From Candidatus Latescibacterota bacterium (lineage in GTDB: Bacteria > Latescibacterota > UBA2968 > UBA8231), in assembly GCA_022820485.1 (NCBI GenBank), contig JAJEFJ010000104.1, forward strand, positions 52,968-116,967: 64,000 bases of DNA, in the 5' to 3' direction. Positions 19,788 to 56,710 of this stretch are shown one piece after another. Numbering within the stretch: position 1 is the first letter of the stretch; each line of letters begins with the position of its first letter. Position numbers and translations under genes: made by a program. The notes under the pieces were generated by a model that saw nothing but the letters and a program-made list of their open reading frames with translations, was not told where the DNA came from and did not search any database.

Positions 19788-19991
19788 GTGTTCGAAGGGG
19801 TGAATCCGTACGACTACCTGATGGAGCAGCATCCGGCTGACGCCGTGCGGATGTCCGCGCTCCTCATCAGTCTGTGCGAGATCAACTATGACAAATGTCG
19901 GGACTTGGGATTTGCCTTTACTATGGGAATTATACATGTTACCAAGTCCATACTTTTCAACTATATAGGAGCCTTTAAGGGCGGCGATTGA
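19788..19991 (+). CDS. Hypothetical small protein (67 aa), uncertain
   Basis: This ORF lies directly upstream of, and stop/start coupled with, the type IIG gene. It has no recognisable motifs and could be a leader ORF or not expressed. Confidence 0.2.
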   Translation: MFEGVNPYDYLMEQHPADAVRMSALLISLCEINYDKCRDLGFAFTMGIIHVTKSILFNYIGAFKGGD

Positions 19992-19993
19992 CT

Positions 19994-22900
19994 ATGTATC
20001 AAATAGATTACAACGATCCGAAATACCAAGCAGCAGCGGCGGCGATTCTGCAACGGCACGACAATAATGAACCCGAGGCTAATATCACTAGTGCGGTGCG
20101 GGACTTTTTGCTCTGCACGGGATTGGTTGATGCAAATAAAGTCGCCGAGGAAGTGTCGCCATCGGACCGCTCGGTGCGCGCTGTGGATTTGAGGGCGTCA
20201 AATACGTTTATCGAAATCAAGAAGCGCATCGGCACGACCGGAGGCTTTAATCCCAATGAAATCTATGTGAAGCAGTTGGATGAATACTTGGCGGAATCCA
20301 TGACGTACGGGCGGAGAGCGCGGATGGGTGTCCTCACAGACGGGAGGTACTGGCTCCTACGCTGGCCGAATGCCGGCAAGGTCAAAACGACTAGGCCCTA
20401 TGCTTTTACCCTAGAATCGGCGGCTGACTGGCTGCTTTTGTACGAGTGGCTACGCGACAAGGTCATCGGTACGCAGGACGAAATTCCAGCTCAGCGCACT
20501 GAGGTCGAGCAGAACTTTGGGCCCAACAGCCCGTTGTATCGATGGGATATTGACGGCCTTAACGTGCTCTACCAAGGGGCGAAGGACCGCGAAACCGTCC
20601 GAGTCAAGTGCCGTCTATGGGAAACCTTGTTGCGAGCGGCATTGGGCGAGATCGCTCAGACGCCCGACGAGCTAGACGATCTGTTTGTCCGACACACGTA
20701 CCTAAGCATGGTCATCGGCATGGTGGTACAGGCGTACTTTGGCATAGATATTCGGGAACGGGCTGCTAATGATCCAACGGACTTGCTCTACGGACGGCAG
20801 TTCCGCGATGACACCGGCCTACAAGACATTATTGAGTCCGATTTCTTTACGTGGCCTGCCGAAGTGGGTGGGGAATCGCTCATTGAGCGGATGGCTGAGC
20901 ATGTAGCCCGCTTTAACTGGAAGGAAGCACCCCCCGACATCGCCGCTACTTTATATGAAGCGATTATTCCTCCGGATGAGCGCCGCCAGTTGGGCGAGTA
21001 TTATACCCCAGAATGGCTGGCGCAGGAGATGGTACAGGAGGTAGTAACGGACCCGCTCCGCCAACGGGTTCTCGACCCGTCTTGTGGCTCCGGCACGTTT
21101 GTCGCCGTTTCGGTGCGCCACTTTGTCGAAGCGGCCACAGAAGAGGCGTTGGAGCGACTGCGCGAGGCGGTGATGGGTATTGACGTGCATCCGGTAGCGG
21201 TACGGCTGGCCCGCACGGCTTGGGTGATGGCAGCGCGGCCCCTCCTTGAGGCGGCCGCCGAGGCCGGGTATGAGGGGAACGTGGCGATACCCGTGTATTT
21301 GGGAGACGCCTTGCAGTTGCACTACCAAACCGGTGACTTGTTTGTCGGCGGGGATATAGGCATTGAGGTGGAGGGCGATGAGTTCGACAAAAGGCTAATT
21401 TTCCCGATTCGTTTGGTGGAGCAAGCCGACACGTTTGATCGGCTGATGAGCGACGTTGCCGATGCGATTGAGCGCGGCCATGATCCGCTAGTTGCGCTGG
21501 ACGACCACGGGATTACGGACCCGGACCAGCGACAGACGCTGGCGACGACGATCGCGATCATGCAGGATTTACACGCCGAAGGGCGCAATCACATCTGGGC
21601 GTATTACACGCGCAATTTGGTCCGTCCGGTGGCGTTAAGCCGCCACAAGGTCGATGTGATTGTCGGCAACCCGCCGTGGCTGAACTATCGCAATACCGCT
21701 AGCGTGCTGCGCGACAAGCTGGTGCAGCAGAGCAAGGAGCTGTATCACATCTGGCAGGGGGGGCGCTATGCAACGCATCAAGATGTCGCCGGACTTTTCT
21801 TTGCCCGTAGCGTCGCGCTCTACCTGAAAGCTGGCGGCACTATCTCCATGGTGTTGCCACACAGCGCATTGCAAACCGGGCAATATGCCAAGTGGCGCAC
21901 GGGACGATGGGGCGATTTGGCGGTGAATTTCGGCTGCAAAACGGCGTGGGATCTGGAAAAACTCGAACCCAACACGTTTTTTCCGGTCGCATCGTGTGTC
22001 GTGTTTGCCGAGCGGATGGATGAATTGGCCCCAGCGACACCCTTGACCGGCGAGGTCGAGCAATGGCAAGGGACGACCGGGGCGAAGGATGTGTGGCGGG
22101 AGCGGATGGCCATTACCGACACGTCGGTTAGTGGAACATCGCCATACGCGGATCGCTTTCGGCAGGGCGCTTCCATCGTGCCGCGCTGTCTTTTCTTTGT
22201 CCATGAAGTCGAAGGCACTACCCTTGTTAGAGCCGCGCAAACCGTTAAGGTGGAGCCACGCCGAGGTCGCAATGACAAAGCACCGTGGAAGACGCTTGAT
22301 CTGACCGCCATCACCGGGCAGACGATAGAGAAAGCGCACTTATTTGACGTTCACTTGGGAGAGACGGTGGTGCCCTACGCGACCTTACCCCCGCTGAAAG
22401 CCCTGTTGCCCTTAAAACGAAACGACAATGAACTGCCTGTGGATCCCAATGGGACGGGAGGCATTCATCTCGGTGGGTTGGAACAGCGGATGCGGGGACG
22501 GTGGCAGCAGGTCAGTGCATTATGGGAGTTGCATAAAGGGGCTAATAACTCCAAGAGCTTGCTACATTGGTTGGACTATCATGGCAAACTCTCGGCGCAA
22601 CTCGAATGGCGAAAGAATGACAAGGGCACTCCTATTCGCGTGGTGTACACCTCAGCAGGGGAACCTACGGCTGCGATTATTGCTGACAGGGACACCATTA
22701 TTGACTACAAGTTATTCTGGATAACTTGTAAGGACATGCAGGAGGCTCACTACTTACTCGCCATCATTAACAGCCGCACCCTATATGAAGCGGCTCAACC
22801 GTTGATGTCCAAGGGTCAGTTTGGAGCGCGTGATTTACAGAAGCATCTGTGGAAATTGCCGATACCAGAATACGATGAAACGAACCGCTTGCATCAGGAG

Positions 22901-23077
22901 ATAGCGATGGCCGGTCAAGCAGCCGCCAGCGAGGCCGCCCAGCAATTGCAAAACCTATACAAGCAACGCGGCGATGCGGTCAGCACGACCGTCGTTCGCC
23001 GCGAATTGCGCGGGTGGCTCGCCCAATCGGACGAAGGCAAGCAAGTAGAGACGCTAGTAAAACGACTATTGGCGTAA
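19994..23077 (+). CDS. Type IIG/IIL restriction-modification enzyme (MmeI-like: N-terminal PD-(D/E)xK nuclease + gamma N6A-methyltransferase + C-terminal TRD)
   Basis: The N-terminal segment VDLRASNTFIEIKK carries a D...ExK motif. The methyltransferase motifs are GEYYTPEWLAQEMV (motif X), VLDPSCGSGTFV (motif I) and VIVGNPPWLNY (motif IV). ~350 aa of C-terminal TRD follow. The start is at ATG 19994 or TTG 19988. Confidence 0.7.
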   Translation: MYQIDYNDPKYQAAAAAILQRHDNNEPEANITSAVRDFLLCTGLVDANKVAEEVSPSDRSVRAVDLRASNTFIEIKKRIGTTGGFNPNEIYVKQLDEYLAESMTYGRRARMGVLTDGRYWLLRWPNAGKVKTTRPYAFTLESAADWLLLYEWLRDKVIGTQDEIPAQRTEVEQNFGPNSPLYRWDIDGLNVLYQGAKDRETVRVKCRLWETLLRAALGEIAQTPDELDDLFVRHTYLSMVIGMVVQAYFGIDIRERAANDPTDLLYGRQFRDDTGLQDIIESDFFTWPAEVGGESLIERMAEHVARFNWKEAPPDIAATLYEAIIPPDERRQLGEYYTPEWLAQEMVQEVVTDPLRQRVLDPSCGSGTFVAVSVRHFVEAATEEALERLREAVMGIDVHPVAVRLARTAWVMAARPLLEAAAEAGYEGNVAIPVYLGDALQLHYQTGDLFVGGDIGIEVEGDEFDKRLIFPIRLVEQADTFDRLMSDVADAIERGHDPLVALDDHGITDPDQRQTLATTIAIMQDLHAEGRNHIWAYYTRNLVRPVALSRHKVDVIVGNPPWLNYRNTASVLRDKLVQQSKELYHIWQGGRYATHQDVAGLFFARSVALYLKAGGTISMVLPHSALQTGQYAKWRTGRWGDLAVNFGCKTAWDLEKLEPNTFFPVASCVVFAERMDELAPATPLTGEVEQWQGTTGAKDVWRERMAITDTSVSGTSPYADRFRQGASIVPRCLFFVHEVEGTTLVRAAQTVKVEPRRGRNDKAPWKTLDLTAITGQTIEKAHLFDVHLGETVVPYATLPPLKALLPLKRNDNELPVDPNGTGGIHLGGLEQRMRGRWQQVSALWELHKGANNSKSLLHWLDYHGKLSAQLEWRKNDKGTPIRVVYTSAGEPTAAIIADRDTIIDYKLFWITCKDMQEAHYLLAIINSRTLYEAAQPLMSKGQFGARDLQKHLWKLPIPEYDETNRLHQEIAMAGQAAASEAAQQLQNLYKQRGDAVSTTVVRRELRGWLAQSDEGKQVETLVKRLLA

Positions 23078-41409: not shown

Positions 41410-44211
41410 ATGTCATTTGCTACGCACAGTGAAAACGCCGAGTACATTGAAGCTCTCTACGAGCAGTACCAGCGCGATCCCAACTCGGTCCCAGAAGAGT
41501 GGCAGCACTTCTTCCGCGGCTTTGAATTCGGCTTCGCGCGCTCGGCACCCGCCAGCGAACCAGACCCAGACCAAACAGCCTTGCAGTCCATAGAAGAAGC
41601 CACTGAGGGCCTTTTGGTCCTCGAAGGCGTCCAAGCTCTCGTGCAGGCCTATCGGCAAATGGGCCACTTCGTCGCCCGGCTCGACCCGCTGGGGTACAAC
41701 CGTCGGACCCTGCCGCTGTTGGATCTAGTGGAATTCGGCCTCGCCGAAGAAGACCTCGAAAAGACCGTGGGCAACGGCAGCTTCCTCGGGCGCACGGACG
41801 GGACGTTAACGGGTCTGTTGAGCAAGCTGAAAACCACGTATTCCCGCTCCATTGGCGTCGAATACATGGACATCCCAGACAAGGAGCAGCGCGACTGGCT
41901 GCAAGAGCGGATCGAGCCTTGCCTCAACAACCCCAATTTGTCCGAAGACGAGACGCGGCGGGTGCTCGCGCGCCTGATCGCCGCCGAGGAGTTTGAGCAG
42001 TTTTTGCACACGCGCTACATCGGGCAAAAGCGCTTCTCGCTCGAAGGGGCCGAGTCCATGGTGCCGCTCCTAGACGAGTTGGTTAGTACCGGCTCCCAGC
42101 TCGGCGTCGAAGAGGTGGTCATCGGCATGGCCCACCGCGGTCGGCTCAACGTACTGGCTCACCTTTTGCACAAGCCCTACGAGGAAATCCTCGCCGAGTT
42201 CGAGGGCGCTGATCGCACCGACCGCGACGACGACGAGGGCGACGTCAAATATCACAAAGGCTATTCCCATGACCACGTCACCGAGGAGGGACGCAAGGTC
42301 CATCTCTCGCTCAGTTTTAATCCCAGCCACCTAGAGCTAGTTGATCCGGTCATCGAGGGCATCGTCTATGCCAAGCAGGCCTACTTGCACGATGCGGAAG
42401 GAGAGCGGGTGGTCCCGGTGCTCATCCACGGAGAGGCCGCTTTTACCGGCCAAGGGATCGTCTCGGAAACCCTCAATCTCTCCGAACTGCCCGGCTACCG
42501 CACTGGCGGCTCCGTCCACATCATCATCAACAACCAGCTCGGCTACACCGCCCAAGCTGACGAGACGCGCTTTACCCCCTATCCGACCGACATAGCTAAG
42601 GAGATTCAGGCACCGGTCTTTCACGTCAACGCCGACGATCCCGAAGCCGTAATGCAAGCGGCGCGGGTGGCGATGGAGTTTAGGCACCGTTTCAAAGTGG
42701 ATGTGTTTATCGATTTGTGGTGTTATCGCCGCCACGGCCACAACGAGGCCGACGACCCGACCCTGACCCAGCCGCTGATGTACAAGAAAATCGCCGAACA
42801 TCCGACGATCCTCCATCTCTATTCCTTCCAACTCATTGCCCAAAATAAAATTTCCCAAGAGGAAGCCGACGATATTCGCGCGCGGATTCGCACCCGGCTC
42901 GAAGAAGCCCAGCAAATCGCCCGCCGCCTGCAAGTCCAGCCCCAAATTTCGTCCTTCGGGGGCGTCTGGCAGGGCCTGACTTGGGCACCCGATGACTGGA
43001 GCGCCCACACGGCCGTCGATGCCAAAATCCTGCAGCGGATCGTCGAGCGGGCGACCCAAATCCCCGAGGGCTTCTCGCTGCACCGCACAATCCAACGAAT
43101 GGTCGAAGCGCGCCGCGCCATGGCCGCTGGCCAAGCACCCATCGACTGGGGCTGCAGCGAGGTGATGGCCTTCGGCTCGTTGCTGCGGGAGGGCGTGGCA
43201 GTGCGCCTGACTGGCCAAGATACCCAGCGCGGCACCTTTGCCCACCGCCACGCCGTCTGGCACGACACCGAAACGGGCGCAGAGCACGTCCCCTTGCAGT
43301 GCTTGGAGCGCGATCAGGCCGACTTCGTCGTGATCAACACCATGCTATCGGAGCTAGCAGTACTCGGCTTTGAGTACGGAATCAGCTCGGCGGACCCGAG
43401 GCGCTTGGTCTTGTGGGAGGCCCAATTCGGCGATTTCGTCAATGGCGCGCAAATGATCATCGACCAATTCCTCTCCAGTGGCGAAGCCAAGTGGCAGCGA
43501 ATGAGTGGCTTGGTGCTGCTGTTGCCACACGGGTACGAGGGCATGGGGCCAGAGCACTCGAGTGCGCGGCTGGAGCGCTTCTTGCAACTGTGCGCCAAAA
43601 ACAACATGCAAGTGGCTTATCCAACCACGCCGGCGCAACTTTTTCACATCTTGCGCCGGCAGATCCACCGCAACTTCCGCAAGCCACTGGTGCTGATGAC
43701 CCCCAAGAGCCTCCTGCGGCACAAGCAATGCGTCTCAGAGCTAGCAGAGTTTTCCACTGGAACGTTCCAGCGGGTCATCGACGACGCACACGTCGCCGAT
43801 CCAGCCACCGTCAGCCGGGTGGTGCTCTGCACCGGCAAGATCTACTACGACTTGGTTGCTGCCCGCGGCGAGCAAAATGGCGGCGACGAGGTGGCGCTGC
43901 TGCGCGTCGAGGAACTCTATCCGTTCCCGGCTGCTGAACTCCAAGCCGCGTTCGAGCGCTATCCCGCGGCCGAGCAGTTCTACTGGGTGCAGGAAGAATC
44001 GCAGAACATGGGCGCTTGGTCCTTTGTCCAGCCCCTCTTAGACGAACTACTGCCCGCGCACTGCAAGCTGAACTACGTGGGCCGCGACGAAGCGGCCAGC
44101 CCGGCCACTGGCTCCGGGCACCTTCACGAAACCGAGCAACGGGAAATCGTCGAGCAGGCACTAGGCCAAGGCCGTGAAATGGTGCTGCATCAGCGGCGGC
44201 AATCTGGTTAG
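41410..44211 (+). CDS. sucA: 2-oxoglutarate dehydrogenase E1 component
   Basis: It carries ~930 aa of E1o landmarks (N-terminal [16 protein letters not shown], ThDP-binding region, [10 protein letters not shown]-terminal transketolase-like domain). The start is ATG 41410 (MSFATHS), or 41392. Confidence 0.9.
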
Positions 44212-44221
44212 GAGCATTTGT

Positions 44222-45481
44222 ATGTCAGTACAAGTCGAAATACCGAGCATGGGCGAATCCGTCAGCGAGGTCATTCTCCTCGAATGGCTCAAGAGCAACG
44301 GCGAGCGCGTCGAGCAGGACGAGCCGCTCTGCGTGTTAGAAACCGACAAGGCCAATGTCGAACTGCCGTCCCCAGCCAGCGGCGCTCTCAAACACCTACA
44401 ATCCACCGACACCACGCTAGCCATAGGAGCGATAATCGCGGAGATAGATGAATCAGCACAAGCTGCCGCTCCGGCCCCGGCGTCCAAACCCGAACCCGCT
44501 GCGCCCAAACCCGAATCCACCCTAAGCCCAGCCGTGCGCCGTTTAGTTGAAGAACACGAGTTGGATCCAACTGCCATTGAGGGTACGGGCAAGGACGGGC
44601 GGCTGACAAAAAAGGACGTGCTCGCCCACCTAGAGACGCTATCCGCGCCCGAACCCGCTCAACCGCCGCCTGCACCTGCACCTGCTCAACCACCGCCTGT
44701 ACCCAAACCCGCTCCGCCGCCTGAGCCTGAATCCACTCCTGCGCCCGAACCGGCTCAATCGTCTCCTGCGCCCGCTAGTCCCGGCCTCACCCGTCGCGAG
44801 CCAATGAGTCGGCTCCGCCAGCGCATTGCCGAACACTTGGTCGCCGCCCAGCACAACGCGGCCATGCTGACGACTTTCAACGAAATCGACATGAGCGGAG
44901 TTATGCAGCTTCGGGCCAAGTACAAGGAGCGCTTTGCCCAAGTCCACGGCTCATCGCTGGGGCTGATGTCGTTCTTTTCGCGAGCTGCCGTCCTCGCGCT
45001 CAGCGAGTTTCCGGCGATCAACGCGCAGATCGACGACACGCACATTGTGTATCACGACTTCGTCAATCTGGGGATCGCCGTGAGCACGGAGCGCGGTCTA
45101 GTCGTGCCTGTCTTGCACCGCGCCGATCAAATGTCCATCGCCCAGCTCGAAAGCAACATCAAGCGCCTCGCACTAAGCGCTCGCGACAACAAGCTGGCCA
45201 TGGACGAACTAAGCGGCGGCACCTTTACCATCACCAACGGCGGAGTCTTCGGCTCGCTGCTTTCCACGCCGATTCTAAACGCACCACAAAGTGGAATTCT
45301 GGGAATGCACGCGATCCAAGAGCGGCCCGTAGCTGTCGAAGGTCAAATGGTGATTAGGCCGATGATGTACGTAGCGCTGTCCTACGATCATCGGCTCGTC
45401 GATGGCCAGCAATCGGTCTCGTTTTTGGTGCGGTTGAAAGAGCTTGTCGAGGACCCAGCGCGGCTGCTGTTAGAGGTCTAG
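44222..45481 (+). CDS. sucB: Dihydrolipoyllysine-residue succinyltransferase (E2o)
   Basis: The lipoyl domain is [46 protein letters not shown] Pro/Ala-rich linker, a PSBD and the catalytic domain (SYDHRLVDG) follow. The start is ATG 44222. Confidence 0.9.
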
Positions 45482-45517: not shown

Positions 45518-46471
45518 ATGCCCAAAAAAGTTAAAAAACGCAATCAAGAGAATCCGCTTAAGTTCGAGTTTTCTATGGTTGGCAAACAGCTAGCGACAAA
45601 AAATGAGTCGAAATTTTGTGAGATATATAGGCATCCTCACGGTTCTCTTTTTCAGGGGGATTCCATCGAGTGGCTCAAGAGCTTGGACACGGAAAGCGTA
45701 GATCTTATCTTTGCCGATCCCCCTTATAATATCAACAAAGCCGAATGGGATAGATTTGAGAACCAAGAACAGTACATTGAATGGTCAATGCAATGGATTA
45801 GAGAAGCACATCGCGTTCTAAAGAAAACAGGGACGATGTATCTCTGTGGATTCTCTGAGATACTTGCCGATATAAAGCAGCCGTCTATGAAGTGTTTTAG
45901 ATCGTGCAAGTGGCTGGTGTGGTACTATAAAAACAAAGCCAATATGGGAAGTGACTGGGGAAGGTCGCATGAGAGCATTCTTCACTTGCGTAAATCCAAG
46001 AAACAGACATTTAATATCGATGACATTAGAATCCCCTATGGCAATCATACGCTAAAGTACCCATCTCATCCACAAGCAGAGTCAAGTCAGTACGGAAACG
46101 GAGCGAATCAAAAAAATGTTTGGACGCCGCATCCGGGAGGGGCAAAGCCACGAGATGTTATAGAAGTGCCGACCACGTGTAATGGAATGAATGAAAAAAC
46201 ACCTCATCCTACACAAAAACCAGAAGAACTCGTTCGGAAGTTTGTCCTAGCCTCGTCAAAAGAAGGCGATCTTGTTATTGATCCGTTCTCAGGATCGGGG
46301 ACAACGTTAGTCGTTTCTGAACAACTCGCACGAAGATGGGCTGGTTGTGAAATCAATCCCGAATACAATAAATGGGCGATAGACAGGATAGAAAATGTGA
46401 TTCGCAGATCAAAAGATGGATGGATCGCACTTGATAAAGAAAATGAAAAAAGAAGGAGTTCAATCCGTTGA
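45518..46471 (+). CDS. Beta-class DNA methyltransferase (N6-adenine or N4-cytosine), low GC
   Basis: Motif IV comes first (LIFADPPYNI) and motif I later (VIDPFSGSGTTL), which is the beta-class order. GC is ~38-40%. The downstream gene overlaps as ATGA. Confidence 0.75.
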   Translation: MPKKVKKRNQENPLKFEFSMVGKQLATKNESKFCEIYRHPHGSLFQGDSIEWLKSLDTESVDLIFADPPYNINKAEWDRFENQEQYIEWSMQWIREAHRVLKKTGTMYLCGFSEILADIKQPSMKCFRSCKWLVWYYKNKANMGSDWGRSHESILHLRKSKKQTFNIDDIRIPYGNHTLKYPSHPQAESSQYGNGANQKNVWTPHPGGAKPRDVIEVPTTCNGMNEKTPHPTQKPEELVRKFVLASSKEGDLVIDPFSGSGTTLVVSEQLARRWAGCEINPEYNKWAIDRIENVIRRSKDGWIALDKENEKRRSSIR

Positions 46472-47367
46472 ACTTGGAAAGACTGGTAAGTATCGCCTGC
46501 GATAAAGACTATTTTCGCGACATTGATAGGTACTGCGACTTTGCAAAGGCGTATCTTGAATTCATCAAAGACAATCTACAAGCTGTAATTGTATCGAGAA
46601 ATGAGAACAATTATCAATTTTTTCAATACAAAGATGATGGGACATACAATGTAACAAGACCAATTAACTCCAAATTGATGTATTCATTAGAAGATATGGA
46701 GGCTGCTATTGACCCTTTTAAAGAAATTCTTTTGGATATTCAAGGCGAGGATGATAGTACTGATAATTCGTCTAACCGAGAGATCATTAATAGAAGCATT
46801 TATACAGCGCAACAATGTATTGGAGCTACTCTTGATGCCTTGCCTGCTAATAAGTCAAATACGGCAAGAAAGATAAATGGCGATCTGTTTGAAAGATTCA
46901 TACGTCTCATTATAGGCAAAGTAGGAGTTTATGTCACGCAAGGGACAGTGCAAGTTCCGGTGAAAATAGATGGAAAAGTCGAATTTACTATGAATTATCA
47001 GCACGATCTTATTGTGAAAGAACTTGAAGAAGTACGTGCGATAGGGTCTGTAAAAACATCGAGCAAGGACCGTCTAGCTAAAATATTTGTCGATAAATTC
47101 CTATATAATCGCTTGACAGATAGAGACACACCCCATTTCGCTATTTTTCTAAACGATGTGCAAAGAAAAGGCAGGGACGGCAACTACGGTATCAATACAA
47201 CTTTTCTTTCAGGGCACTTTAAGGGCTATACAGTTAAACTAAATCCATTAGATGGAGTATATTATTTTGACATACGTCCTGACATGCAGATAAAGGATAT
47301 TTTGAAGGATCACATAAAAACCTTCGACCATTTTCTATTTGGCGATATTTGGAAGCTCGTCAGGTAA
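46468..47367 (+). CDS. Putative type II restriction endonuclease (partner of the upstream methyltransferase); no recognisable family
   Basis: It is translationally coupled to the methyltransferase and has the same low GC. 299 aa with no motif match, so it is assigned by context. Confidence 0.4.
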   Translation: MNLERLVSIACDKDYFRDIDRYCDFAKAYLEFIKDNLQAVIVSRNENNYQFFQYKDDGTYNVTRPINSKLMYSLEDMEAAIDPFKEILLDIQGEDDSTDNSSNREIINRSIYTAQQCIGATLDALPANKSNTARKINGDLFERFIRLIIGKVGVYVTQGTVQVPVKIDGKVEFTMNYQHDLIVKELEEVRAIGSVKTSSKDRLAKIFVDKFLYNRLTDRDTPHFAIFLNDVQRKGRDGNYGINTTFLSGHFKGYTVKLNPLDGVYYFDIRPDMQIKDILKDHIKTFDHFLFGDIWKLVR

Positions 47368-47401: not shown

Positions 47402-48814
47402 GTGCTGCTAATTACGCAAAAAGGAACAACTGTGAGCGACACTACATTCGACTTAGTGGTTATCGGCGCAGGACCAGGCGGCTACGTGGCCGCGAGCAAG
47501 GCGGCACAGCTCGGCATGAAGGTGGCCTGCATCGACAAAAGCTACCTCGGCGGCACCTGTCTCAATGTCGGCTGCATCCCCAGCAAGGCGTTGCTAGAGT
47601 CGAGTGATTTATTCTACAGAGCCAAGAAAGGGTTAGGACACCACGGAATCGGACAGGGCGAAGTGGGCTTGGACCTGCAGGCCATGATGGCGCGAAAAGA
47701 AAAAATCGTGCAGACCATGACCAAAGGTATTGAGGGGCTGTTTAAGGGCCGGGGGGTGACGCATTTCGTCGGCACAGGCCAAGTTCGCGCCCCGGGAAGC
47801 GTGGCGGTGCAAGGTTCAGACGGCGAGCAAGTGCTATCTGCCAAGCACATCCTGTTGGCCACGGGGAGCGTACCCGTGGAGTTGTCGAATCTGCCCTTTG
47901 ATGGAAAACACATAATCAGTTCGACCGAGGCCCTAACCTTAGAAAAGGTGCCCGAGCAACTCGTCGTCATCGGCGGCGGTGCCATTGGATTGGAACTGGG
48001 GTCCGTGTGGGCACGGTTGGGTGCCCAAGTGCTCGTAATAGAGGCCATGAATCAGATTTTGCCAGAGATGGACCAAGAGATGGCCCGGCAGCTAGAACGG
48101 CTGCTCAAACGACAGGGACTAAAGTTCCTGCTCGGAGCCAAGGCGCAATCCGCTGCGATCAAAAAAGGCCAAGTGACGCTGACTATTGCGGCTGGCGATC
48201 AAGAACGCGTCGAGACGTGCGATCTGGTGTTGGTGGCCGTGGGACGCAAACCATGCAGCGCCGGGTTGGGGCTGGAAGACGTGGGTGTAGCGACCAACGA
48301 ACGTGGACAAGTCTTAGTTGACACACAGGGCCGCACCAACGTCGAGGGCATCTGGGCTATCGGCGACCTCGTGCCCGGACCGATGCTAGCCCACAAGGCC
48401 GAGGCCGAAGGAATCGCCGTCGCCGAGCGAATGGCCGGACATGCCGGGCAGGTCAACTACGAGGCCATACCCTCGGTCGTGTACACCCACCCAGAGCTAG
48501 CCTCCGTAGGCGCGAGTGAAGAAGACGCCACAGCGGCCGGTCACGAGGTCGCCATCGGCAAGCACCAATTTCGCAGCAATGCCCGCGCCCACTGCATGGA
48601 CGACATCGACGGCCTAGTCAAGGTCGTCGCCGATGCGCGCACCGACCAGCTCTTGGGGATGCACATCCTAGGGCCGCAGGCTTCGCACCTGATCGCCGAA
48701 GGCGTCTTGGCCCTAGAGTTCGGCGCGAGTGCCGAGGATGTGGCCCGCACCGTCCACGCGCATCCAGCACTGTCAGAAGTCGTGGGCGAGGCAGCGCGGG
48801 ACACAGTATCGTGA
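47402..48814 (+). CDS. lpdA: Dihydrolipoyl dehydrogenase (E3)
   Basis: The FAD-binding motif is DLVVIGAGPGGY, the redox disulfide is GGTCLNVGCIPSK, and the C-terminal motif is HAHPALSE. The true start is probably the GTG at ~47435 (VSDTTFDLVVIG), after AAAGGAA. Confidence 0.9.
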   Translation: MLLITQKGTTVSDTTFDLVVIGAGPGGYVAASKAAQLGMKVACIDKSYLGGTCLNVGCIPSKALLESSDLFYRAKKGLGHHGIGQGEVGLDLQAMMARKEKIVQTMTKGIEGLFKGRGVTHFVGTGQVRAPGSVAVQGSDGEQVLSAKHILLATGSVPVELSNLPFDGKHIISSTEALTLEKVPEQLVVIGGGAIGLELGSVWARLGAQVLVIEAMNQILPEMDQEMARQLERLLKRQGLKFLLGAKAQSAAIKKGQVTLTIAAGDQERVETCDLVLVAVGRKPCSAGLGLEDVGVATNERGQVLVDTQGRTNVEGIWAIGDLVPGPMLAHKAEAEGIAVAERMAGHAGQVNYEAIPSVVYTHPELASVGASEEDATAAGHEVAIGKHQFRSNARAHCMDDIDGLVKVVADARTDQLLGMHILGPQASHLIAEGVLALEFGASAEDVARTVHAHPALSEVVGEAARDTVS

Positions 48815-51086: not shown

Positions 51087-51980
51087 ATGATTACCGAAGA
51101 ACAAGTCGAGAACCGAAAGCACTGGATCGACGAGATAAGTCGCTCAAGCGGCGATTTTGGCGCTGATGCCGAAAGGATCGAGCAAAAGCTGGAGCAGGAA
51201 ATCCAAGCACAAGGGATTGACGCCCTGCTTGGACACCTGCGTTTATGTGGTGTAATCCCGGAATGCTATGGGCACGACACTAGCGAAGAGAAACTGTACT
51301 CCAAATATACCGATGTTGTGATTCATGCAGCATATACTGCAATGGGGTTTACGAGCTTGGTTCTTAAGGAGCGAGCGAATGTAGCTGATGTTGAGTGCGT
51401 CACCAACGACTACAGTTTTGTCGCTGATGCAAAAGCATTTAGACTGAGCCGCACAGCGAAGAATCAGAAGGATTTCAAGGTACAAGCAATGGACAACTGG
51501 AAGCATGGAAAGCCCTATGCGATGGTTGTTTGTCCAGTATATCAACTTCCATCTCTAAAAAGTCAGATATACAAACAGGCTGCTGAGAGCTCCGTTTGCA
51601 TTGCGACGTATACGCACCTAGCTGTACTTGTTCGTTATGCCCAGAAATCGACTCAGAACAAGGCAATAGAGTTGGTTCACGAGGTGTTTAGAACGGTCGA
51701 AGCGATGAATCCGTCAAAGAATGCAGTTAGCTACTGGCAGGCAGTAAACCGCAAATTTTTGGCTTTTGACGAAGTAATCGGTGCAATATGGCGGGATGAG
51801 AAACTCGCATCAAACGAGGCCATCACTATCTTAAAAGAAGAAGCACTCACTTTCCTCGCCAAGGAGCGAGAGCGAATTATGAGACTGACGTTACGCGGCG
51901 ACCCTACTCGGCGGCATCTAACAGAGGCCGAAAGGCTTCGAGGCTGGGCACCTGTATGGCCGCGCGGAACAACTGCTTGA
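51087..51980 (+). CDS. Hypothetical protein with a PD-(D/E)xK-like motif (possible orphan restriction-type nuclease), low GC
   Basis: TNDYSFVADAKAF fits D...(D/E)xK. GC is ~42% over 51087-51890. The last ~30 codons run into high-GC DNA antisense to the Rpn remnant, so the 3' end looks rearranged. Confidence 0.3.
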   Translation: MITEEQVENRKHWIDEISRSSGDFGADAERIEQKLEQEIQAQGIDALLGHLRLCGVIPECYGHDTSEEKLYSKYTDVVIHAAYTAMGFTSLVLKERANVADVECVTNDYSFVADAKAFRLSRTAKNQKDFKVQAMDNWKHGKPYAMVVCPVYQLPSLKSQIYKQAAESSVCIATYTHLAVLVRYAQKSTQNKAIELVHEVFRTVEAMNPSKNAVSYWQAVNRKFLAFDEVIGAIWRDEKLASNEAITILKEEALTFLAKERERIMRLTLRGDPTRRHLTEAERLRGWAPVWPRGTTA

Positions 51981-52167
51981 GGCGCTGCACATCGTCAATG
52001 GTCGCAATGTGGTCGGCCAACGGATCCGACGCGGCCAGCCCAAAGCGAATCGCCAGCACGTCGAGCAGGTCTTCAACGGCGCGTTCGCGGCCTCCTTGCT
52101 CAATGCCTTGCTCAATGCCTTGCTCAATGCCTTGCTCCCACGCATCGGCGCAACCACGCATCCACAT
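51904..52167 (-). pseudogene. C-terminal remnant of an Rpn/YhgA-family (PDDEXK_7 transposase-like, DUF4351) protein
   Basis: ...EQGIEQGIEQGIEQGGRERAVEDLLDVLAIRFGLAASDPLADHIATIDDVQRLKQLFRAAIQV matches the characteristic DUF4351 C-terminus. No N-terminal nuclease domain remains upstream. Confidence 0.5.
52096..52137. repeat. 12-bp tandem repeat (ttgctcaatgcc x3.5), which encodes the EQGI repeats of the Rpn remnant on the minus strand
   Basis: This repeat was read directly from the sequence. Confidence 0.8.
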
Positions 52168-52357
52168 CCATCCCGGCCGGACGACCCATCAGCGGCGTGA
52201 ACGGTAGGACGCCCACATTGCCCGACGCCAAGTGCGCCAGCCCATCCAACGCGGCCAGCCGGATCACCTTGTAGCGAGCCATCCGCAGCGGCATGGACAA
52301 GGCCGTGCTGTCGGTGGTCTGAAACTCGCAGTGAACTAACGCCTCCTCGCCAAGGAA

Positions 52358-52390
52358 TAATAAAGAAAGCCCCTGAAAAATCAGGGGCTT
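52358..52390 (-). terminator. Rho-independent terminator downstream of tRNA-Val
   Basis: On the minus strand the hairpin AAGCCCCTGAtttttCAGGGGCTT is followed by TTCTTTATTATT. Confidence 0.6.
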
Positions 52391-52396
52391 AGAAGA

Positions 52397-52473
52397 TGGT
52401 GGGCGATACTAGACTTGAACTAGTGACCTCCTGCATGTCAAGCAGGCGCTCTAGCCAGCTGAGCTAATCGCCC
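52397..52473 (-). tRNA. tRNA-Val (anticodon GAC)
   Basis: The minus strand reads GGGCGATTAGCTCAGCTGGCTAGAGCGCCTGCTTGACATGCAGGAGGTCACTAGTTCAAGTCTAGTATCGCCCACCA. It folds as a cloverleaf with an anticodon loop TTGACAT and an encoded CCA. Confidence 0.85.
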
Positions 52474-52634
52474 TTAAATATTTTGGATTTTTGTACGCTA
52501 TCCAGTATAATCTTAAATAATAACAACAGAGCATCAACGCCGTCAAGGTTAATAGGGTAGAGCGGATAGGGGCAGTGGGTCATTAAATCGACTACACAAT
52601 TTGTCCTTTACACCTTAACCCCCGAGGTGTGCTC

Positions 52635-55600
52635 ATGTTGCAGATTTTTTTGCTTCTCGTTTTAGCGGGCGTGGGATTGTCGTGTTCAGATGACCCGAAG
52701 CCGACGGCCCACGATTCTGTACCCCCCCCCCCCAGCTAGCTGCGGCTAAGGCCACAGCGACCGCGTCCTACGAGGTGCCGCAGTCGCTGATCGACCTCGT
52801 GGAGTCCTACTACGAGGCCAACAAGGCCAAGGCCAACCGCAACTACGGTGCCAACTGGTATCGCGTGTTGATCGCCTTCGGCGCGAGTTTGCCGACATGG
52901 GAAGGCGCGGGAGCGGCTCCCACCACCGCCTACACGGCTGCCGAGGCCGAGGATTCCTACGCCGTCTGGTCTGGGTGGAAGCCGATATGGGATGCTCTTA
53001 AAGAGCTGGAGAAGGTCGATGACAACGACGGCGGCACGGACGGCAGCGGCGGCACGGACGACACCACGCCACCCCCGTCCCAAGACCCGGTCATCAGCAT
53101 CGCCCCGGGCTCGGCCATCACCGAGGGCGACTTGGCTATTTTCACGCTGACGGCCACGCCCGCTCCCTCGGCGGGCCTCACCATCAAGCTGACCATCAGC
53201 GAGTCTGGTTCCTTTGTCTCGTCCGGAGCAAAAGACCAGACCTATATGAACACGAGCGGCACGGTCAGCATCACGGTCGGCACCGACGACGATAATACGT
53301 CCGAGGCGGCGGGCACCATCACGCTGACGGTCAACGACGGGTCCGGCTACACGCCTTCTAGCACCAACGGCTCGGCCACCGTCACCGTCAGCGACAACGA
53401 CGGCGGTGCCCCCCCGCCCGATCCACAGCCGGACCCGCAGCCCGATCCACAGTCCGATCCGCAGACGCTCCAAGATCTGCAGACGCAGTACAGCAGTCTG
53501 ATCAGTACGGTCGGCGATTACTACGATGCCAACAAGAACAACGCCAACCGCAACTATGGTGTGAACTGGTATCGCGTGTTGATCGCCTTTGGCGTGTCCC
53601 TGCCGACGTGGGAAGGTGCGGGAGACGCTCCCACCACTGCATACACGGCTGATGAGGCCGAGGATTCCTACGCTGTCTGGTCTGGGTGGAAGCCGATATG
53701 GGACGCCCTAATAGAATTTGAGGCCCTGCAGCCGACGTCCACCGACGAGGGCACCGTCACCGTCGATCCTGATCCGCCGGTGTTTGAGGCCCAGCGATTG
53801 CCGTCCAGAACCTACTCTTTTACGATGCAGGACGGTACATCGGTGCCTAATGGTGACAATTCTTTCACCGGTTTTCAAATTGGCACGTCTGGATCCATTA
53901 CGCTGCGCTTCACGCATAGCGACGTGGGGTCTGGTGGTGGGAAGTGCTTCAGGGGCAGGTTTGTTAATATCACAGCCCCGAAAGGGCACGACATCACCTT
54001 AGTAGCGAAGAAGAAGTCGGATGGGAGCAGCAGCACCTATAAAGGTACCCCCGGTTGGGACGACTACTCCGGCTGCAGCAGTAACGAATACCGCGAGGTT
54101 ACGATCACGTGGACACGCAACAGCGATCCGCTGCCTACCACCGACGCGGACAAGAAGCTCACCTTCTTTTATCGAGACTATGCCCATTCAGATGGTAGAT
54201 ACTACCATGGTGACGACTTCGCGTTCTATCTCACGGAGAAGCCTGTGACCCCGCCCCCGTCCCTAGCCCCAGCTAAGGTGTGGTCCCTCACTAAGCCGGA
54301 TGGCACGGCTTGGGCGGGCTTCACCGAGGGCACGTCCGGAACGCAGGAGCTGCACCTGTCGCACAACCATGACACAGACGAGGATTACTGTTCGTTCAAT
54401 GGCGACATTGAGATCGTGGGGGCTGCTAGCCGCCACAACGTCACGTTCAAGACCAAGGGCGGCAAGGTGCTCGGATGGTTCGACCCCTCCTGCGACAACA
54501 TCGACTTGCAGACCGACGGCTATCGGGCGATAGAGGTCAAGTGGAACAGCAGCTCCAACAACGCCTTCAACGCCGACGAGACGGTCAAGATATGGTTCAA
54601 AAACCGGGATAAGGGAGGAGCCGTCGCCGCGTACAAAGACACAACCGAGTGGACGTTCTCCATCCCGGACGACGGCATGTCCCCGTCGCAGGTATGGAGC
54701 CTCACCAACACGGACGGCTCGGCGTTATCTAACCCATCACTTCTGTTTGAGGAGGGTACGTCCGGGTCGAAGAAGTTACGGTTCACGCACGACCGGTTAA
54801 GCGCAAGCGACTGCTCGTTCAACGGCAACTTTGAGATTACACAGGCCGCGGCCCGTCATAAGGTTAAGTTCACGACGGACGGCACGCGGTTGGACGGTAC
54901 GCCGGGCTGGCGCGACTTCGGCTGCCACCATCTCAAAGGGTCGGGTACAAACAAGTACCGCGAGGTGACGCTCTCGTGGGACAGCACCACCGACTACCAG
55001 GGTAGCACCGACTCCTTCGTGCTGCGTTGGCATGACCGAGGGAAGACCGAGGACGGAACGCCCGTGCAATCCGTCAACTTCATTTTTGCAATCGGCCCCG
55101 ACGGCAAGGACGGCCGGGTCAATCTCATCGGTAATACCCTGACCATCCGCGAGGGCACCAAGGACAACCATACCTTTGTCTTCGACCGACCGAATGGGAC
55201 TGATCTGCGGTTCTTTCATGGCAAGGCGGAGCTTGTGTTCACCCCGTCGTCCTTGAAGGATGACATCGGCGCGACCGTCTTCGGCAACGGCAAGAACGAC
55301 GGATGCGAATGGTACTTCGATGACGACAATCCCCTGACCGATGACTTTGCCCAGCCGTCCTGCACCTTGTCGTGGGACTGGCATACTAACGGGGAAGCCG
55401 GTCCCACCGGCACGATCGCCTTGCAATGGACAGATAGGGTGCCTACCATCCTCAATTCGGGCTATACGCCCTTGCCCCAGACGGTGAACACCAACATCAA
55501 CATCGTCGATGACGGCCTAACCGAGTGTCCGCCCCGCGCACCGGTCCCGGAGAATGGGAAGTGTCGGGCCTACACAGAAGAAGAGTTAAAAGCCCAGTCC

Positions 55601-56710
55601 GCAGAGGCGTTTCAAGCAGCGATGGAAGACCGTCGGGAGGAGGTCTTGGCGCAGGCGCAGCCGTATCCATATCCGTCGGGGCCGTGTACGCCTGACCAAG
55701 ACCTCCTCGATAGGGCGGTGTACTACACCAATGCCATGTGGGTGTCCGACCGGGTGTGCGACCCCATCGCCGACATGAACTCGAACCGCTGCACCCGCTA
55801 CGGCGAGCACCTCGACTACTGGTCGGACGTGCTGGGTGGCCTGCTCGACACGCGGTCGCCCCGCATACCCTTCTTCCGGTGCTACAACAGGTGCGGGGGG
55901 GAGAACCAGTCCGCCTGTGAGAATGTGACCGGCGAGTCGCGGCCGTTAGACTACAAGCCGGAAAATTACGAGGCCATGGTTGACCGGTGCGACTGGAACC
56001 CCCGCTGGACGGCGGTCCAGAAGTTCATCGGGGCTGACTATCATCCACCGGCCACGGTGGCGTCCCTACAGGAGATGAAGGCCAACGACACGCTCAGGCT
56101 AGGGCTGTCGAACATCGCTGACCGCAGCTCCTACAGCGACGACATGGGCTTCTACGACGAGCTCATCACCGAGATCGGGTGGCTGTCCGCCTGCCGGGAC
56201 GGGCTGCGGTATGATCCCGCGTTCAGCAGTCGTAGTGGCTACCAGTCCCCTAGGGCATGGGTCGAGATCGTGGACGACGGCTTCATCCCATGGGTCGAGG
56301 GCACGGTCTATCCGGCTGGCACCTACGTCACATGGAACGGTAATTACTTCCAGGCGAAGGCCACGCAGAAGGACCATGTTGACAAGAACCCGCTCAAAGG
56401 GTCCTTTCGCGGGGCGTGGACGTACTTCTTCTTGACCGAGCACACCGCCGACGCGAAGTCAATTCGGATACGCTCTAACGTCCGCGGCTCTCACCAGGTT
56501 GAGGCCATGATTGGCAACAGCAACAGCTTCGCGGGGCACTCGCCCGTCGATCGGGTGCAGTTCGATATAGTCAACGGCATGTCCGACGTGATCGAGCTCA
56601 ACTGCTCGTCGGATGCTCATTCGGGTCGGGTGTGGCTCTATCCCGTTGCGGGTGACGTGCAGATTCCCCAGGTCACGGGAGGGTCGGTCAACCCGAAAGT
56701 CTGTCGCTAG
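52635..56710 (+). CDS. Giant (>1340 aa when in phase) repeat-rich surface lipoprotein; the signal-peptide exon (52635-52736) is currently out of frame with the body (52694-56710)
   Basis: The ATG at 52635 encodes MLQIFLLLVLAGVGLSCSDDPKPTAHDSVPPPP, a lipoprotein signal with lipobox-like VGLSC. A 12-C tract follows and a TAG stop comes 2 codons later. The -1 frame is open from 52694 through 56710. The body has two ~75-aa near-identical repeats, a Calx-beta-like domain, a (PDPQ)n linker, three ~125-aa novel beta modules, a Cys-rich region and a CBM5/12-like YVTWNGNYFQAKA motif. Confidence 0.6.
52722..52733 (+). repeat. Poly(C)12 homopolymeric tract at the junction between the signal peptide and the mature protein
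   Basis: 12 consecutive C were read directly from the sequence. 13 or 10 C would restore a single reading frame. Confidence 0.8.

What the first reader, a model, noticed from the sequence alone, without database searches (positions are those of the whole stretch)
52635..52780. Poly-C(12) tract separates a lipoprotein signal peptide from a 1300-aa open frame: an apparent slipped-strand phase-variation switch, currently OFF
The ATG at 52635 encodes a convincing lipoprotein signal peptide (MLQIFLLLVLAGVGLSCSDD...). After 29 codons a run of exactly 12 C follows, and a TAG stop comes two codons later. The -1 frame is open from 52694 (just after a TGA) and runs without stops to 56710. With 13 or 10 C, the signal peptide fuses in frame as ...SVPPPPQLAAAKATATASYEVPQSLIDL... 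to give one secreted lipoprotein of ~1350 aa. With 11 C translation stops after PASCG, so two of the three repeat-length phases are OFF. This is the classic contingency-locus design of Neisseria, Haemophilus and Campylobacter surface genes, here applied to a giant adhesin-like protein in a high-GC organism. A near-consensus sigma-70 promoter (TTGGAT-16-TATAAT, 52484-52511) lies ~125 bp upstream.
Basis: seen in the sequence. Interest (0 to 1): 0.85.

Follow-up and report, generated by a model that had tools for sequence, protein, structure and literature searches.

The report
Poly-C frameshift switch in lipoprotein gene
A run of 12 cytosines just behind the export signal of a 1,350-residue surface lipoprotein gene puts the gene out of frame; one or two bases more or fewer would restore it, which is the ordinary design of a bacterial on/off "contingency" gene, here seen in an uncultured ~60 % GC bacterium and not yet proven to switch.

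Summary
ATG 52635, preceded by a GAGGTG ribosome-binding site, encodes a lipobox signal peptide. C12 follows at 52722-52733, then TAG. The other frame is open from 52694 to 56710, and 13 or 10 C fuse the two.

New evidence:
1. Three homologous genes in another metagenome encode signal peptide, linker and first domain in one frame. The fused form is therefore the ancestral, functional one.
2. Those homologues have only C5 at this position, so C12 is a lineage-specific expansion.
3. Two other assemblies of the same population match the window over about 24 kb except for two SNPs and this tract, which reads 11 C in one and 12 C in the other.
4. No assembly carries an ON length.
5. With 11 C, an internal ATG (52690) reads into the long frame without a signal peptide. 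That ATG comes from conserved Asp-Asp codons and is probably incidental.

Best reading (about 0.55): a hypermutable slipped-strand switch, currently OFF. Rivals are a homopolymer miscall, a recent non-adaptive inactivation, and ribosomal or transcriptional slippage.

This is a new member of a known kind, of moderate interest. The protein carries an unannotated helical domain and a Calx-beta fold, and about 780 residues have no detectable homologue.

The parts
52397..52473 (-). tRNA-Val(GAC), the immediate upstream neighbour. Its terminator hairpin is at 52367-52390, and a likely promoter (TTGACG-18-TATTAT) lies at 52546..52517 on the minus strand.
   Evidence: ARAGORN; Rfam tRNA, 69 bits; scan
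52483..52511 (+). Candidate promoter: TTGGAT, 17-nt spacer, TATAAT. The -10 hexamer is perfect and the -35 matches 3 of 6. It lies 123 nt upstream of the ATG.
   Evidence: Direct reading. Not called by the consensus scanner. Inference only.
52624..52629 (+). Shine-Dalgarno-like GAGGTG, 5 nt before ATG 52635.
   Evidence: Direct reading. No comparable motif lies before ATG 52690 or GTG 52775.
52635..52739 (+). Signal-peptide reading frame as it stands with 12 C: 34 codons (MLQIFLLLVLAGVGLSC|SDDPKPTAHDSVPPPPS) plus TAG. The lipobox L-S-C is at 52677-52685, with Cys17.
   Evidence: Translation; lipobox scan; homologous N-termini MLKLFFITMAVGVGMSCSDDPKP... in L086 and ...VVLSCSDDD... in L087
52722..52733 (+). 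C12 homopolymer, the proposed slipped-strand switch. 13 or 10 C is ON (fused lipoprotein). 12 C is OFF (TAG two codons on). 11 C is OFF for export (stop after PASCG).
   Evidence: Reads 11 C in L002 and 12 C in L003. Homologues have C5 here.
52690..52692 (+). Internal ATG, in frame with the long ORF only at 11 or 14 C. It would give the leaderless MTRSRRPTILYPPPQLAAAK..., 1339 aa. It is created by the conserved Asp-Asp codons GAT GAC and has no ribosome-binding site.
   Evidence: The gene call on the 11-C assembly L002 is 1339 aa; sequence; variants built; the same GATGA occurs in homologues.
52694..56710 (+). Long open frame: 1338 codons plus TAG. The first possible start is GTG 52775 (1311 aa), with no signal peptide.
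52784..53017 (+). Helical domain A, copy 1 (...YYEANK...NWYRVLIAFG...WSGWKPIWDAL...). It matches no Pfam or NCBIfam model here.
   Evidence: Self-comparison; homologues; four helices in the AF2 model; no Pfam or NCBIfam hit; nothing significant in the PDB by sequence (best E 0.6)
53090..53392 (+). Beta-sandwich domain with a Calx-beta fold.
   Evidence: AF2 model, pLDDT 76.8. Top Foldseek PDB hits are NCX1 and CALX CBD1 and the integrin beta4 Calx-beta domain, E 2e-5 to 1e-3. Homologues carry PF03160.
53411..53464 (+). PPP(DPQP)n linker made of 12-nt tandem units. The L086 paralogue has (PDPQ)13 at the same place.
   Evidence: (family D6)
53495..53728 (+). Helical domain A, copy 2. It is 81-85 % identical to copy 1 in protein; the DNA repeat is 86 % identical.
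   Evidence: (D1)
53801..55033 (+). Three divergent repeats of about 130-150 aa (25-46 % identity), each with a Cys pair. No homologue was found anywhere.
   Evidence: no hits
55511..56203 (+). Cys-rich region. Only its last part resembles P0121/L086, by eye; no alignment supports this.
   Evidence: Cys positions; P0121 sequence
56258..56677 (+). C-terminal domain, shared with the single detectable homologue P0121 (43 % identity, E 1.6e-18). It contains a sub-threshold CBM5/12-like stretch at 56291-56386.

Best explanation
One gene encodes a lipid-anchored, exported protein of about 1,358 aa. Its parts in order are a type-II signal peptide, a Pro-rich linker, helical domain A, a Calx-beta fold, domain A again, orphan repeats and a C-terminal domain.

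In this lineage the short C run in the linker has expanded to a pure (CCC)4 homopolymer. In homologues the same position reads TAC CCC CAA.

A C/G tract of this length slips during replication. Its length therefore drifts by +/-1, and the gene toggles between three states:
- ON at 13 or 10 C, giving the signal peptide fused to the body.
- OFF at 12 C, with TAG two codons after the tract.
- OFF at 11 C, with a stop after PASCG.

The sequenced population is mostly in the 12-C OFF state, with an 11-C variant also assembled.

Shown: the anatomy, the correctness of the fused frame from homologues, and the tract as the only length-variable site between assemblies.

Inferred: that the variation is biological, that it is reversible, and that ON cells exist and are selected under some conditions.
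For: - C12 is far beyond chance: 0 of 100 shuffles, and it is the only run of 10 or more bases in 64 kb.
- All four Pro codons are CCC. Neighbouring genes use CCC for 35 % of Pro codons, and every other PP/PPP stretch in this ORF uses mixed codons.
- The fused frame matches homologues from Met1 through domain A at 54 % identity. Three genes in L086 and L087 have it in a single frame.
- A GAGGTG ribosome-binding site precedes only ATG 52635.
- Over about 24 kb, three assemblies differ by two SNPs and this one indel: 11 C in L002, 12 C in L003 and the window.
- Both OFF frames stop within 2-6 codons.
- The remaining 1,311 codons are intact.
- Literature: SSR indel variability rises by orders of magnitude between 6 and 10 bp across prokaryotes (PMC3315296). 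C. jejuni G/C tracts switch at 1e-4 to 1.6e-3 per division, with a bias towards deletion at G11 or longer (PMC8355987).
Against: - No assembly has an ON length.
- 11 versus 12 C may be sequencing or PCR stutter, or an assembler's choice. L002 and L003 probably derive from the same sample, which I could not verify.
- Homologues have only C5, so the tract is not conserved.
- Only one long tract is seen in 64 kb plus 6.7 kb, so there is no evidence for a set of contingency loci.
- The organism's mismatch-repair status and habitat are unknown.
- The signal peptide lacks the usual Lys or Arg.
Confidence: 0.55

Rival explanations
1. Technical artefact. The true tract is 13 (or 10) C and the gene is simply intact. 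Short-read chemistry, library PCR and assemblers under-call long C/G homopolymers.
For: The 11 C (L002) versus 12 C (L003, window) disagreement between assemblies shows the length call is unstable at this site. Long homopolymers are a known weak point of sequencing (my own knowledge). The fused frame is clearly the functional one.
Against: Two assemblies with different SNP haplotypes agree on 12 C: the window has A at 53045 and L003 has G. None gives 13. If the truth were 13, all three would have to err in the same direction, one of them by 2 bases. The rest of the 24 kb has no indel differences at all.
Confidence: 0.15
2. Recent, non-adaptive inactivation. A Pro-linker C run expanded by neutral slippage and then frameshifted. 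The gene is on its way to becoming a pseudogene, and ON revertants, if any, are not selected.
For: Only OFF lengths are seen, in all three assemblies and in two SNP haplotypes. The tract is absent from homologues. The gene is lineage-specific: it has no synteny in the nearest xylA relative L006, and most of it has no homologue, as expected of dispensable cargo.
Against: The 1,311-codon body has no stop or second frameshift. Promoter-like elements, ribosome-binding site and signal peptide are intact. A C12 tract reverts readily, so a fixed OFF state is physically hard to keep. Long homopolymers are normally purged from coding DNA (PMC3315296).
Confidence: 0.2
3. Recoding rather than DNA switching. 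The 12-C (or 11-C) allele is expressed at a low level. Either the ribosome slips -1 (or +1) on CCC codons read by tRNA-Pro, or RNA polymerase slips on the tract. In that case 'OFF' would really mean 'low'.
For: The frame change needed at 12 C is -1 and at 11 C is +1. Both are possible by re-pairing on a pure C run, and CCC-C is a known +1-prone context (my own knowledge). An in-frame stop lies two codons after the tract. The 12-C length is shared by two SNP haplotypes.
Against: There is no canonical X XXY YYZ heptamer. The downstream RNA structure is only marginal (z = -1.96, 6 of 200 shuffles fold as well). Rfam finds no element. Transcriptional slippage is documented mainly for A/T runs (my own knowledge). 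Homologues need no recoding.
Confidence: 0.07

Closest known systems
Intragenic poly-G/C phase variation of Neisseria surface and receptor genes (hpuA, hmbR and others)
   Same: A homopolymeric G/C tract inside the reading frame shifts the frame on and off by slipped-strand mispairing. The targets are surface-exposed proteins, including the lipoprotein HpuA (PMC3786947 abstract; the lipoprotein nature of HpuA is my own knowledge).
   Different: Neisseria has dozens of such loci, and switching has been measured (PMC5084427). Here there is one locus, no ON allele and no measurement. The organism is an uncultured ~60 % GC bacterium and not a known pathogen.
Campylobacter jejuni G/C-tract contingency genes
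   Same: The repeat type is the same and the lengths are similar (mostly G9-G10). Two of three lengths are OFF. A bias towards deletion at G11 or longer matches the 12-to-11 variant seen here (PMC8355987).
   Different: C. jejuni lacks mismatch repair and carries about 30 such tracts in an AT-rich genome, mostly in glycan-modifying genes. Neither property is known for this organism.
Variable surface lipoprotein families (for example Mycoplasma Vlp/Vsa) - my own knowledge
   Same: A paralogous family has a conserved lipoprotein signal peptide and N-terminus with divergent C-terminal bodies. L086 carries three tandem paralogues. A homopolymer controls expression.
   Different: In Mycoplasma the poly-A tract sits in the promoter and the bodies are short repeats. 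Here the tract is in the coding linker, and only this one family member has it.
Repetitive giant proteins (about 1,200-2,400 aa) made of domain-A and Calx-beta modules, in MAGs named Ca. Poriferisocius, Acidimicrobiia and Chloroflexi
   Same: The first ~320 residues of the mature protein (A, Calx-beta, A) align module for module at 33-53 % identity.
   Different: Those proteins repeat the module many times. They show no relationship to the remaining ~940 residues. This protein has one and a half modules, an orphan body and a lipobox.

Membership tests
SSR-mediated phase-variable (contingency) gene | Hypermutable simple repeat (a homopolymer of about 8 or more) inside the reading frame or promoter | tested here: met
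   C12 at 52722-52733, within codons 30-33 of the gene
SSR-mediated phase-variable (contingency) gene | Repeat-length change switches between a full-length and a truncated product | tested here: met
   In silico: 13 or 10 C give 1358 or 1357 aa; 12 C gives 34 aa; 11 C gives 37 aa. The fused frame is validated by homologues.
SSR-mediated phase-variable (contingency) gene | Tract-length polymorphism within or between populations | tested here: inconclusive
   11 C in L002 versus 12 C in L003 and the window, the only indel in about 24 kb. The assemblies probably share a sample, and sequencing stutter cannot be excluded.
SSR-mediated phase-variable (contingency) gene | Both ON and OFF alleles observed | tested here: not met
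   Only OFF lengths occur in the three assemblies. Exact look-ups of the ON-length proteins found nothing, but the known assembled forms were not in that collection either, so the look-up is uninformative.
SSR-mediated phase-variable (contingency) gene | High-frequency reversible switching, measured | not testable with these tools
   Needs reads, cultures or a reporter construct.
SSR-mediated phase-variable (contingency) gene | Several such loci in the genome (a phasome) | tested here: inconclusive
   Only one run of 10 or more bases in 64 kb, and no C/G run of 9 or more in the 6.7 kb beyond the window. The rest of the genome is not available.
Bacterial lipoprotein (SPase II substrate) | Lipobox [LVI][ASTVI][GAS]C with the Cys at residue 15-35 after a hydrophobic stretch | tested here: met
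   ...LLLVLAGVGLS-C17. SCSDD is invariant in four family members.
Bacterial lipoprotein (SPase II substrate) | Positively charged n-region (Lys or Arg in the first ~7 residues) | tested here: not met
   The window has MLQIFLL with no Lys or Arg. Homologues have MLKLFF or MRNFLP. Other lipobox ORFs in the window have Lys or Arg.
Calx-beta domain (PF03160) | Sequence match to the Pfam model above the gathering score | tested here: not met
   No PF03160 hit at E <= 1 on the window protein. Homologues carry precomputed PF03160 hits.
Calx-beta domain (PF03160) | Calx-beta beta-sandwich fold | tested here: met
   The AF2 model (pLDDT 76.8) has NCX1 and CALX CBD1 as top Foldseek PDB hits, with target-normalised TM 0.56-0.71.
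CBM5/12 carbohydrate-binding module | Pfam PF02839 match above the gathering score | tested here: not met
   15.6 bits against a cut-off of 26.2, E 0.016, residues 1220-1251
Programmed -1 ribosomal frameshift site | Slippery heptamer plus a downstream stimulatory structure | tested here: not met
   No X XXY YYZ motif with Y = A or U. Downstream fold z = -1.96. No Rfam element.

The most novel reading that the evidence does not exclude
The tract is more than a two-state DNA switch. The prevailing 12-C (and 11-C) alleles would be decoded at a low, tunable level by -1/+1 slippage of tRNA-Pro or of RNA polymerase on the C run. The 11/14-C phase would also yield a leaderless cytoplasmic form from ATG 52690. 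One homopolymer would then set three different fates (surface-anchored, trace or absent, cytoplasmic) for a 1,350-aa protein in an uncultured lineage.
Probability: 0.08. Interest if true: 0.7.

Novelty: new member of a known kind. Interest (0 to 1): 0.45.

Why it matters
Contingency loci are documented almost entirely in cultured, host-adapted pathogens and, recently, in phages. My literature search for them together with metagenome-assembled genomes found no paper containing both terms.

A verified case in an uncultured ~60 % GC bacterium would show that bet-hedging by homopolymer slippage also works outside classical pathogens. The gene's N-terminal module is shared with proteins from MAGs named as sponge-associated.

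It would also mark this otherwise orphan lipoprotein as a surface molecule under fluctuating selection, for example from a host, a phage or a grazer. The test is cheap because the reads already exist.

On the practical side, gene callers annotated this locus in two ways (1,339 aa and 1,311 aa, both without a signal peptide). None gave the biologically meaningful product.

Tried and rejected
- Exact-pattern scan of JGI metagenome contigs with the tract flanks: 0 hits.
- Scan with the family N-terminal alignment: 600 pattern hits, none confirmed.
- GTDB species genomes searched with the C-terminal 936 aa: nothing.
- GTDB searched with the neighbouring xylA gene: best 78 % to a Ca. Handelsmanbacteria MAG (L006). 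It shows no synteny for this gene, so the taxon stays unresolved.
- Word-indexed protein search of the C-terminal 936 aa: no hit.
- Full HMMER search over 1.84 billion representatives: one hit, P0121.
- Exact look-up of tract-length protein variants (13C, 10C, 11C, 14C, 12C): none in the collection, not even the assembled forms, so this is uninformative.
- The 34-aa signal-peptide ORF and the window's 1311-aa ORF are not on record.
- Alternative exported start between 52694 and 52775: none.
- ATG 52690 as a designed third state: rejected as likely incidental. It has no ribosome-binding site, and the ATG arises from conserved Asp-Asp codons also present in homologues.
- Stimulatory RNA structure or a known RNA element: marginal or none.
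- Sample identity: accession and code searches found nothing. The guess that 'KELL22-1' is Kelly et al. 2022 on Ircinia sponges (PMC9531527) could not be verified in the text or supplements, and I do not rely on it.
Full report
**1. The observation**

The coordinates and sequence statements of the finding are correct.

- ATG 52635 opens MLQIFLLLVLAGVGLSCSDDPKPTAHDSV. Four CCC codons follow (C12, 52722-52733), then AGC and TAG.
- TGA at 52691-52693 closes the other frame just upstream. From 52694 that frame is open to the TAG at 56708-56710.
- Adding one C or removing two gives a single 1358- or 1357-aa product. Removing one C gives ...PPPPASCG*.
- C12 is the only homopolymer of 10 or more bases in the window. 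It occurred in none of 100 dinucleotide-preserving shuffles. No C run of 9 or more occurs in 81 other fetched loci from other bacteria.
- All four Pro codons are CCC. Neighbouring genes use CCC for 35 % of Pro codons (about 0.016 for four in a row). Every other PP/PPP stretch in the same ORF uses mixed codons.

Three corrections apply.

- The promoter-like site is TTGGAT (52483-52488), 17 nt, TATAAT (52506-52511). Its -35 hexamer matches only 3 of 6, and the consensus scanner did not call it.
- The signal peptide has no Lys or Arg in its n-region, unlike other lipobox ORFs in the window.
- With 11 C, an internal ATG at 52690 is in frame with the long ORF.

**2. What the locus is**

A GAGGTG Shine-Dalgarno motif sits 5 nt before ATG 52635. 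Nothing comparable precedes ATG 52690 or GTG 52775, and no ATG, GTG or TTG exists in the long frame before 52775. The 1311-aa product from GTG 52775 has no export signal. The gene lies next to tRNA-Val(GAC) at 52397-52473 on the minus strand.

The decisive comparative evidence came from the only detectable relative of the C-terminal part, P0121 (E 1.6e-18 among 1.84 billion representatives). Its contig L086 carries tandem paralogues. Two of them begin MLKLFFITMAVGVGMSCSDDPKPTAPDAYPQQMAAKVAGYEVPQSLINKVRSYYEANK... or nearly the same. They are 54 % identical to the window's fused product from Met1 through domain A, all in one reading frame. A third family member, L087, also has signal peptide, lipobox (VVLSCSDDD), linker and domain A in one frame.

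The signal peptide and the long frame of the window are therefore one gene, and the fused form is the functional, ancestral state.

At the DNA level the homologues read GAC GCG TAC CCC CAA CAG ATG GCG GCT AAG. The window reads GAT TCT GTA (C)12 AG CTA GCT GCG GCT AAG. The C12 tract is thus a lineage-specific expansion of a C5 run in the linker behind the lipobox.

**3. Tract length in other assemblies**

Exact-protein look-ups with neighbouring genes recovered two more assemblies of the same population. These are ENA ERZ23491202 scaffolds (L001, L002) and Logan SRR16351681 (L003).

Over about 24 kb they differ from the window by two SNPs (41869 and 53045) and one indel, which is the tract: 11 C in L002, 12 C in L003 and the window. 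The gene caller on the 11-C assembly produced a 1339-aa ORF from ATG 52690. On the 12-C assembly it produced the 1311-aa ORF from GTG 52775. No assembly has 13 or 10 C.

L003 and L002 share G at 53045 and probably come from the same sample, which I could not verify. The window has A there, so it is a slightly different haplotype or consensus.

So the tract is the one unstable site. Whether that instability is biological or comes from sequencing and PCR stutter cannot be decided without reads.

**4. The protein**

Positions use the numbering of the fused product.

| Residues | Feature | Evidence |
|---|---|---|
| 1-17 | Lipoprotein signal peptide | |
| 18-50 | Linker including PPPP | |
| 51-128 | Helical domain A | |
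| ~153-252 | Beta sandwich with Calx-beta fold | |
| ~260-277 | PPP(DPQP)n linker | |
| 288-365 | Second domain A, 81-85 % identical to the first | |
| ~390-800 | Three divergent repeats of ~130-150 aa, each with a Cys pair | |
| 960-1190 | Cys-rich region | |
| ~1209-1348 | C-terminal domain, with a sub-threshold CBM5/12-like stretch (15.6 vs 26.2 bits) | |

- An AlphaFold model of 52775-53440 (pLDDT 76.8) shows a four-helix domain followed by a beta sandwich. Its best PDB matches are the Calx-beta domains of NCX1, CALX and integrin beta4.
- The A / Calx-beta / A module is homologous to modules repeated many times in more than 400 proteins, most of the listed ones about 2,000 aa. They come from MAGs named Ca. 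Poriferisocius, Acidimicrobiia and Chloroflexi.
- The central ~780 residues have no detectable homologue.
- 'Adhesin-like' is therefore a reasonable guess, not a result.

**5. Mechanism and rivals**

*Best explanation (0.55): a slipped-strand ON/OFF switch, at present OFF.* A C12 tract is intrinsically hypermutable. Across prokaryotes SSR indel variability rises by orders of magnitude between 6 and 10 bp (PMC3315296). C. jejuni G/C tracts switch at 1e-4 to 1.6e-3 per division, with a deletion bias at G11 or longer (PMC8355987). That bias fits the 12-to-11 variant. The position is typical of such genes: inside the 5' coding region of an exported surface protein, with quick stops in both OFF frames and an otherwise intact 1,311-codon body.

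*Rival 1 (0.15): a homopolymer miscall, with a true length of 13 or 10.* Against it, two assemblies with different SNP haplotypes agree on 12 and none shows 13.

*Rival 2 (0.20): a recent non-adaptive inactivation at a neutrally expanded tract.* It is favoured by the absence of ON alleles, the absence of the tract in homologues, and the lineage-specific nature of the gene. It is disfavoured by the intact body and expression signals.

*Rival 3 (0.07): recoding by ribosomal or transcriptional slippage.* It is geometrically possible (-1 at 12 C, +1 at 11 C). No canonical slippery site exists, and the downstream structure is only marginal (z = -1.96).

The internal ATG 52690 is most likely incidental. 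It has no ribosome-binding site, and it is created by the conserved Asp-Asp codons GAT GAC, which homologues also have.

**6. Comparison with known systems**

It works like the intragenic poly-G/C contingency genes of Neisseria (hpuA, hmbR; PMC3786947), Campylobacter (PMC8355987) and Helicobacter (PMC2823697).

For membership:
- Met: a repeat in the frame, and a length-dependent frame.
- Inconclusive: length polymorphism.
- Not met: observation of both states.
- Not testable here: measured switching and a genome-wide phasome.

I therefore file it as a candidate new member of a known kind.

**7. Verdict**

The claimed switch is still unproven.

The design is textbook, so a specialist would not be surprised. 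The context is less usual: an uncultured ~60 % GC bacterium of unresolved taxon, and a mostly orphan lipoprotein from a paralogous family. The test is easy because the reads exist. Interest 0.45.

Noticed in passing
window 45518-47367: A low-GC (0.40-0.50) two-gene insert sits between the E2 (44174-45481) and E3 (47402-48814) genes of the 2-oxoglutarate dehydrogenase operon. It consists of an N6/N4 DNA methyltransferase and a 299-aa ORF with no Pfam hit. It looks like a restriction-modification cassette inserted into a core metabolic operon.
   Followed up: partly
window 51087-51980: A low-GC ORF with a HindIII-type restriction endonuclease domain (PF09518, annotated on L001) lies between xylA and tRNA-Val, with no adjacent methylase. 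Its C-terminal ~30 residues look out of character. The following stretch, 51980-52320, is GC-rich and has only short ORFs.
   Followed up: no
window 52319-52332 and 52098-52133: Both short-read assemblies end or start within the same 14 bases just upstream of the tRNA-Val terminator, while the window spans the gap. This suggests a repeat or a strain-level structural variant here. Nearby, the 12-nt unit CTCAATGCCTTG occurs three times in tandem.
   Followed up: no
window 65-1192, 15800-17389, 19988-23077: Three more DNA-methylase or Eco57I-type restriction-modification genes occur in 64 kb, an unusually high density of defence genes. An A9 run (653-661) lies inside the first of these ORFs, and a C8 run (17643-17650) lies near the 3' end of an unannotated 577-aa ORF.
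   Followed up: partly
window 53801-56203 (fused residues ~390-1190): About 780 residues have no detectable homologue in a 5.8-billion-protein word search or in a full HMMER scan of 1.84 billion cluster representatives. They include three internal repeats with paired cysteines.
   Followed up: yes
L086 1-6028: A related organism carries three tandem paralogues of this lipoprotein family, with near-identical signal peptides and A domains and different bodies. One has a (PDPQ)13 linker where the window has about four units. The contig has 3x long-read coverage, and its third gene is broken by a probable sequencing frameshift.
   Followed up: partly
window 52784-53728; proteins P0001-P0120: The module of helical domain A plus Calx-beta matches no Pfam or NCBIfam model for its helical part. 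It is repeated many times in more than 400 large proteins, most of the listed ones about 2,000 aa, from MAGs whose names point to sponge symbionts (Ca. Poriferisocius, Acidimicrobiia, Chloroflexi).
   Followed up: partly
window 53045: The only SNP inside the gene between assemblies (A in the window, G in L002 and L003; Ser versus Gly) falls in a local 18-nt duplication encoding GGTDG[S/G]GGTDD. It may reflect repeat-mediated variation or a consensus choice.
   Followed up: no
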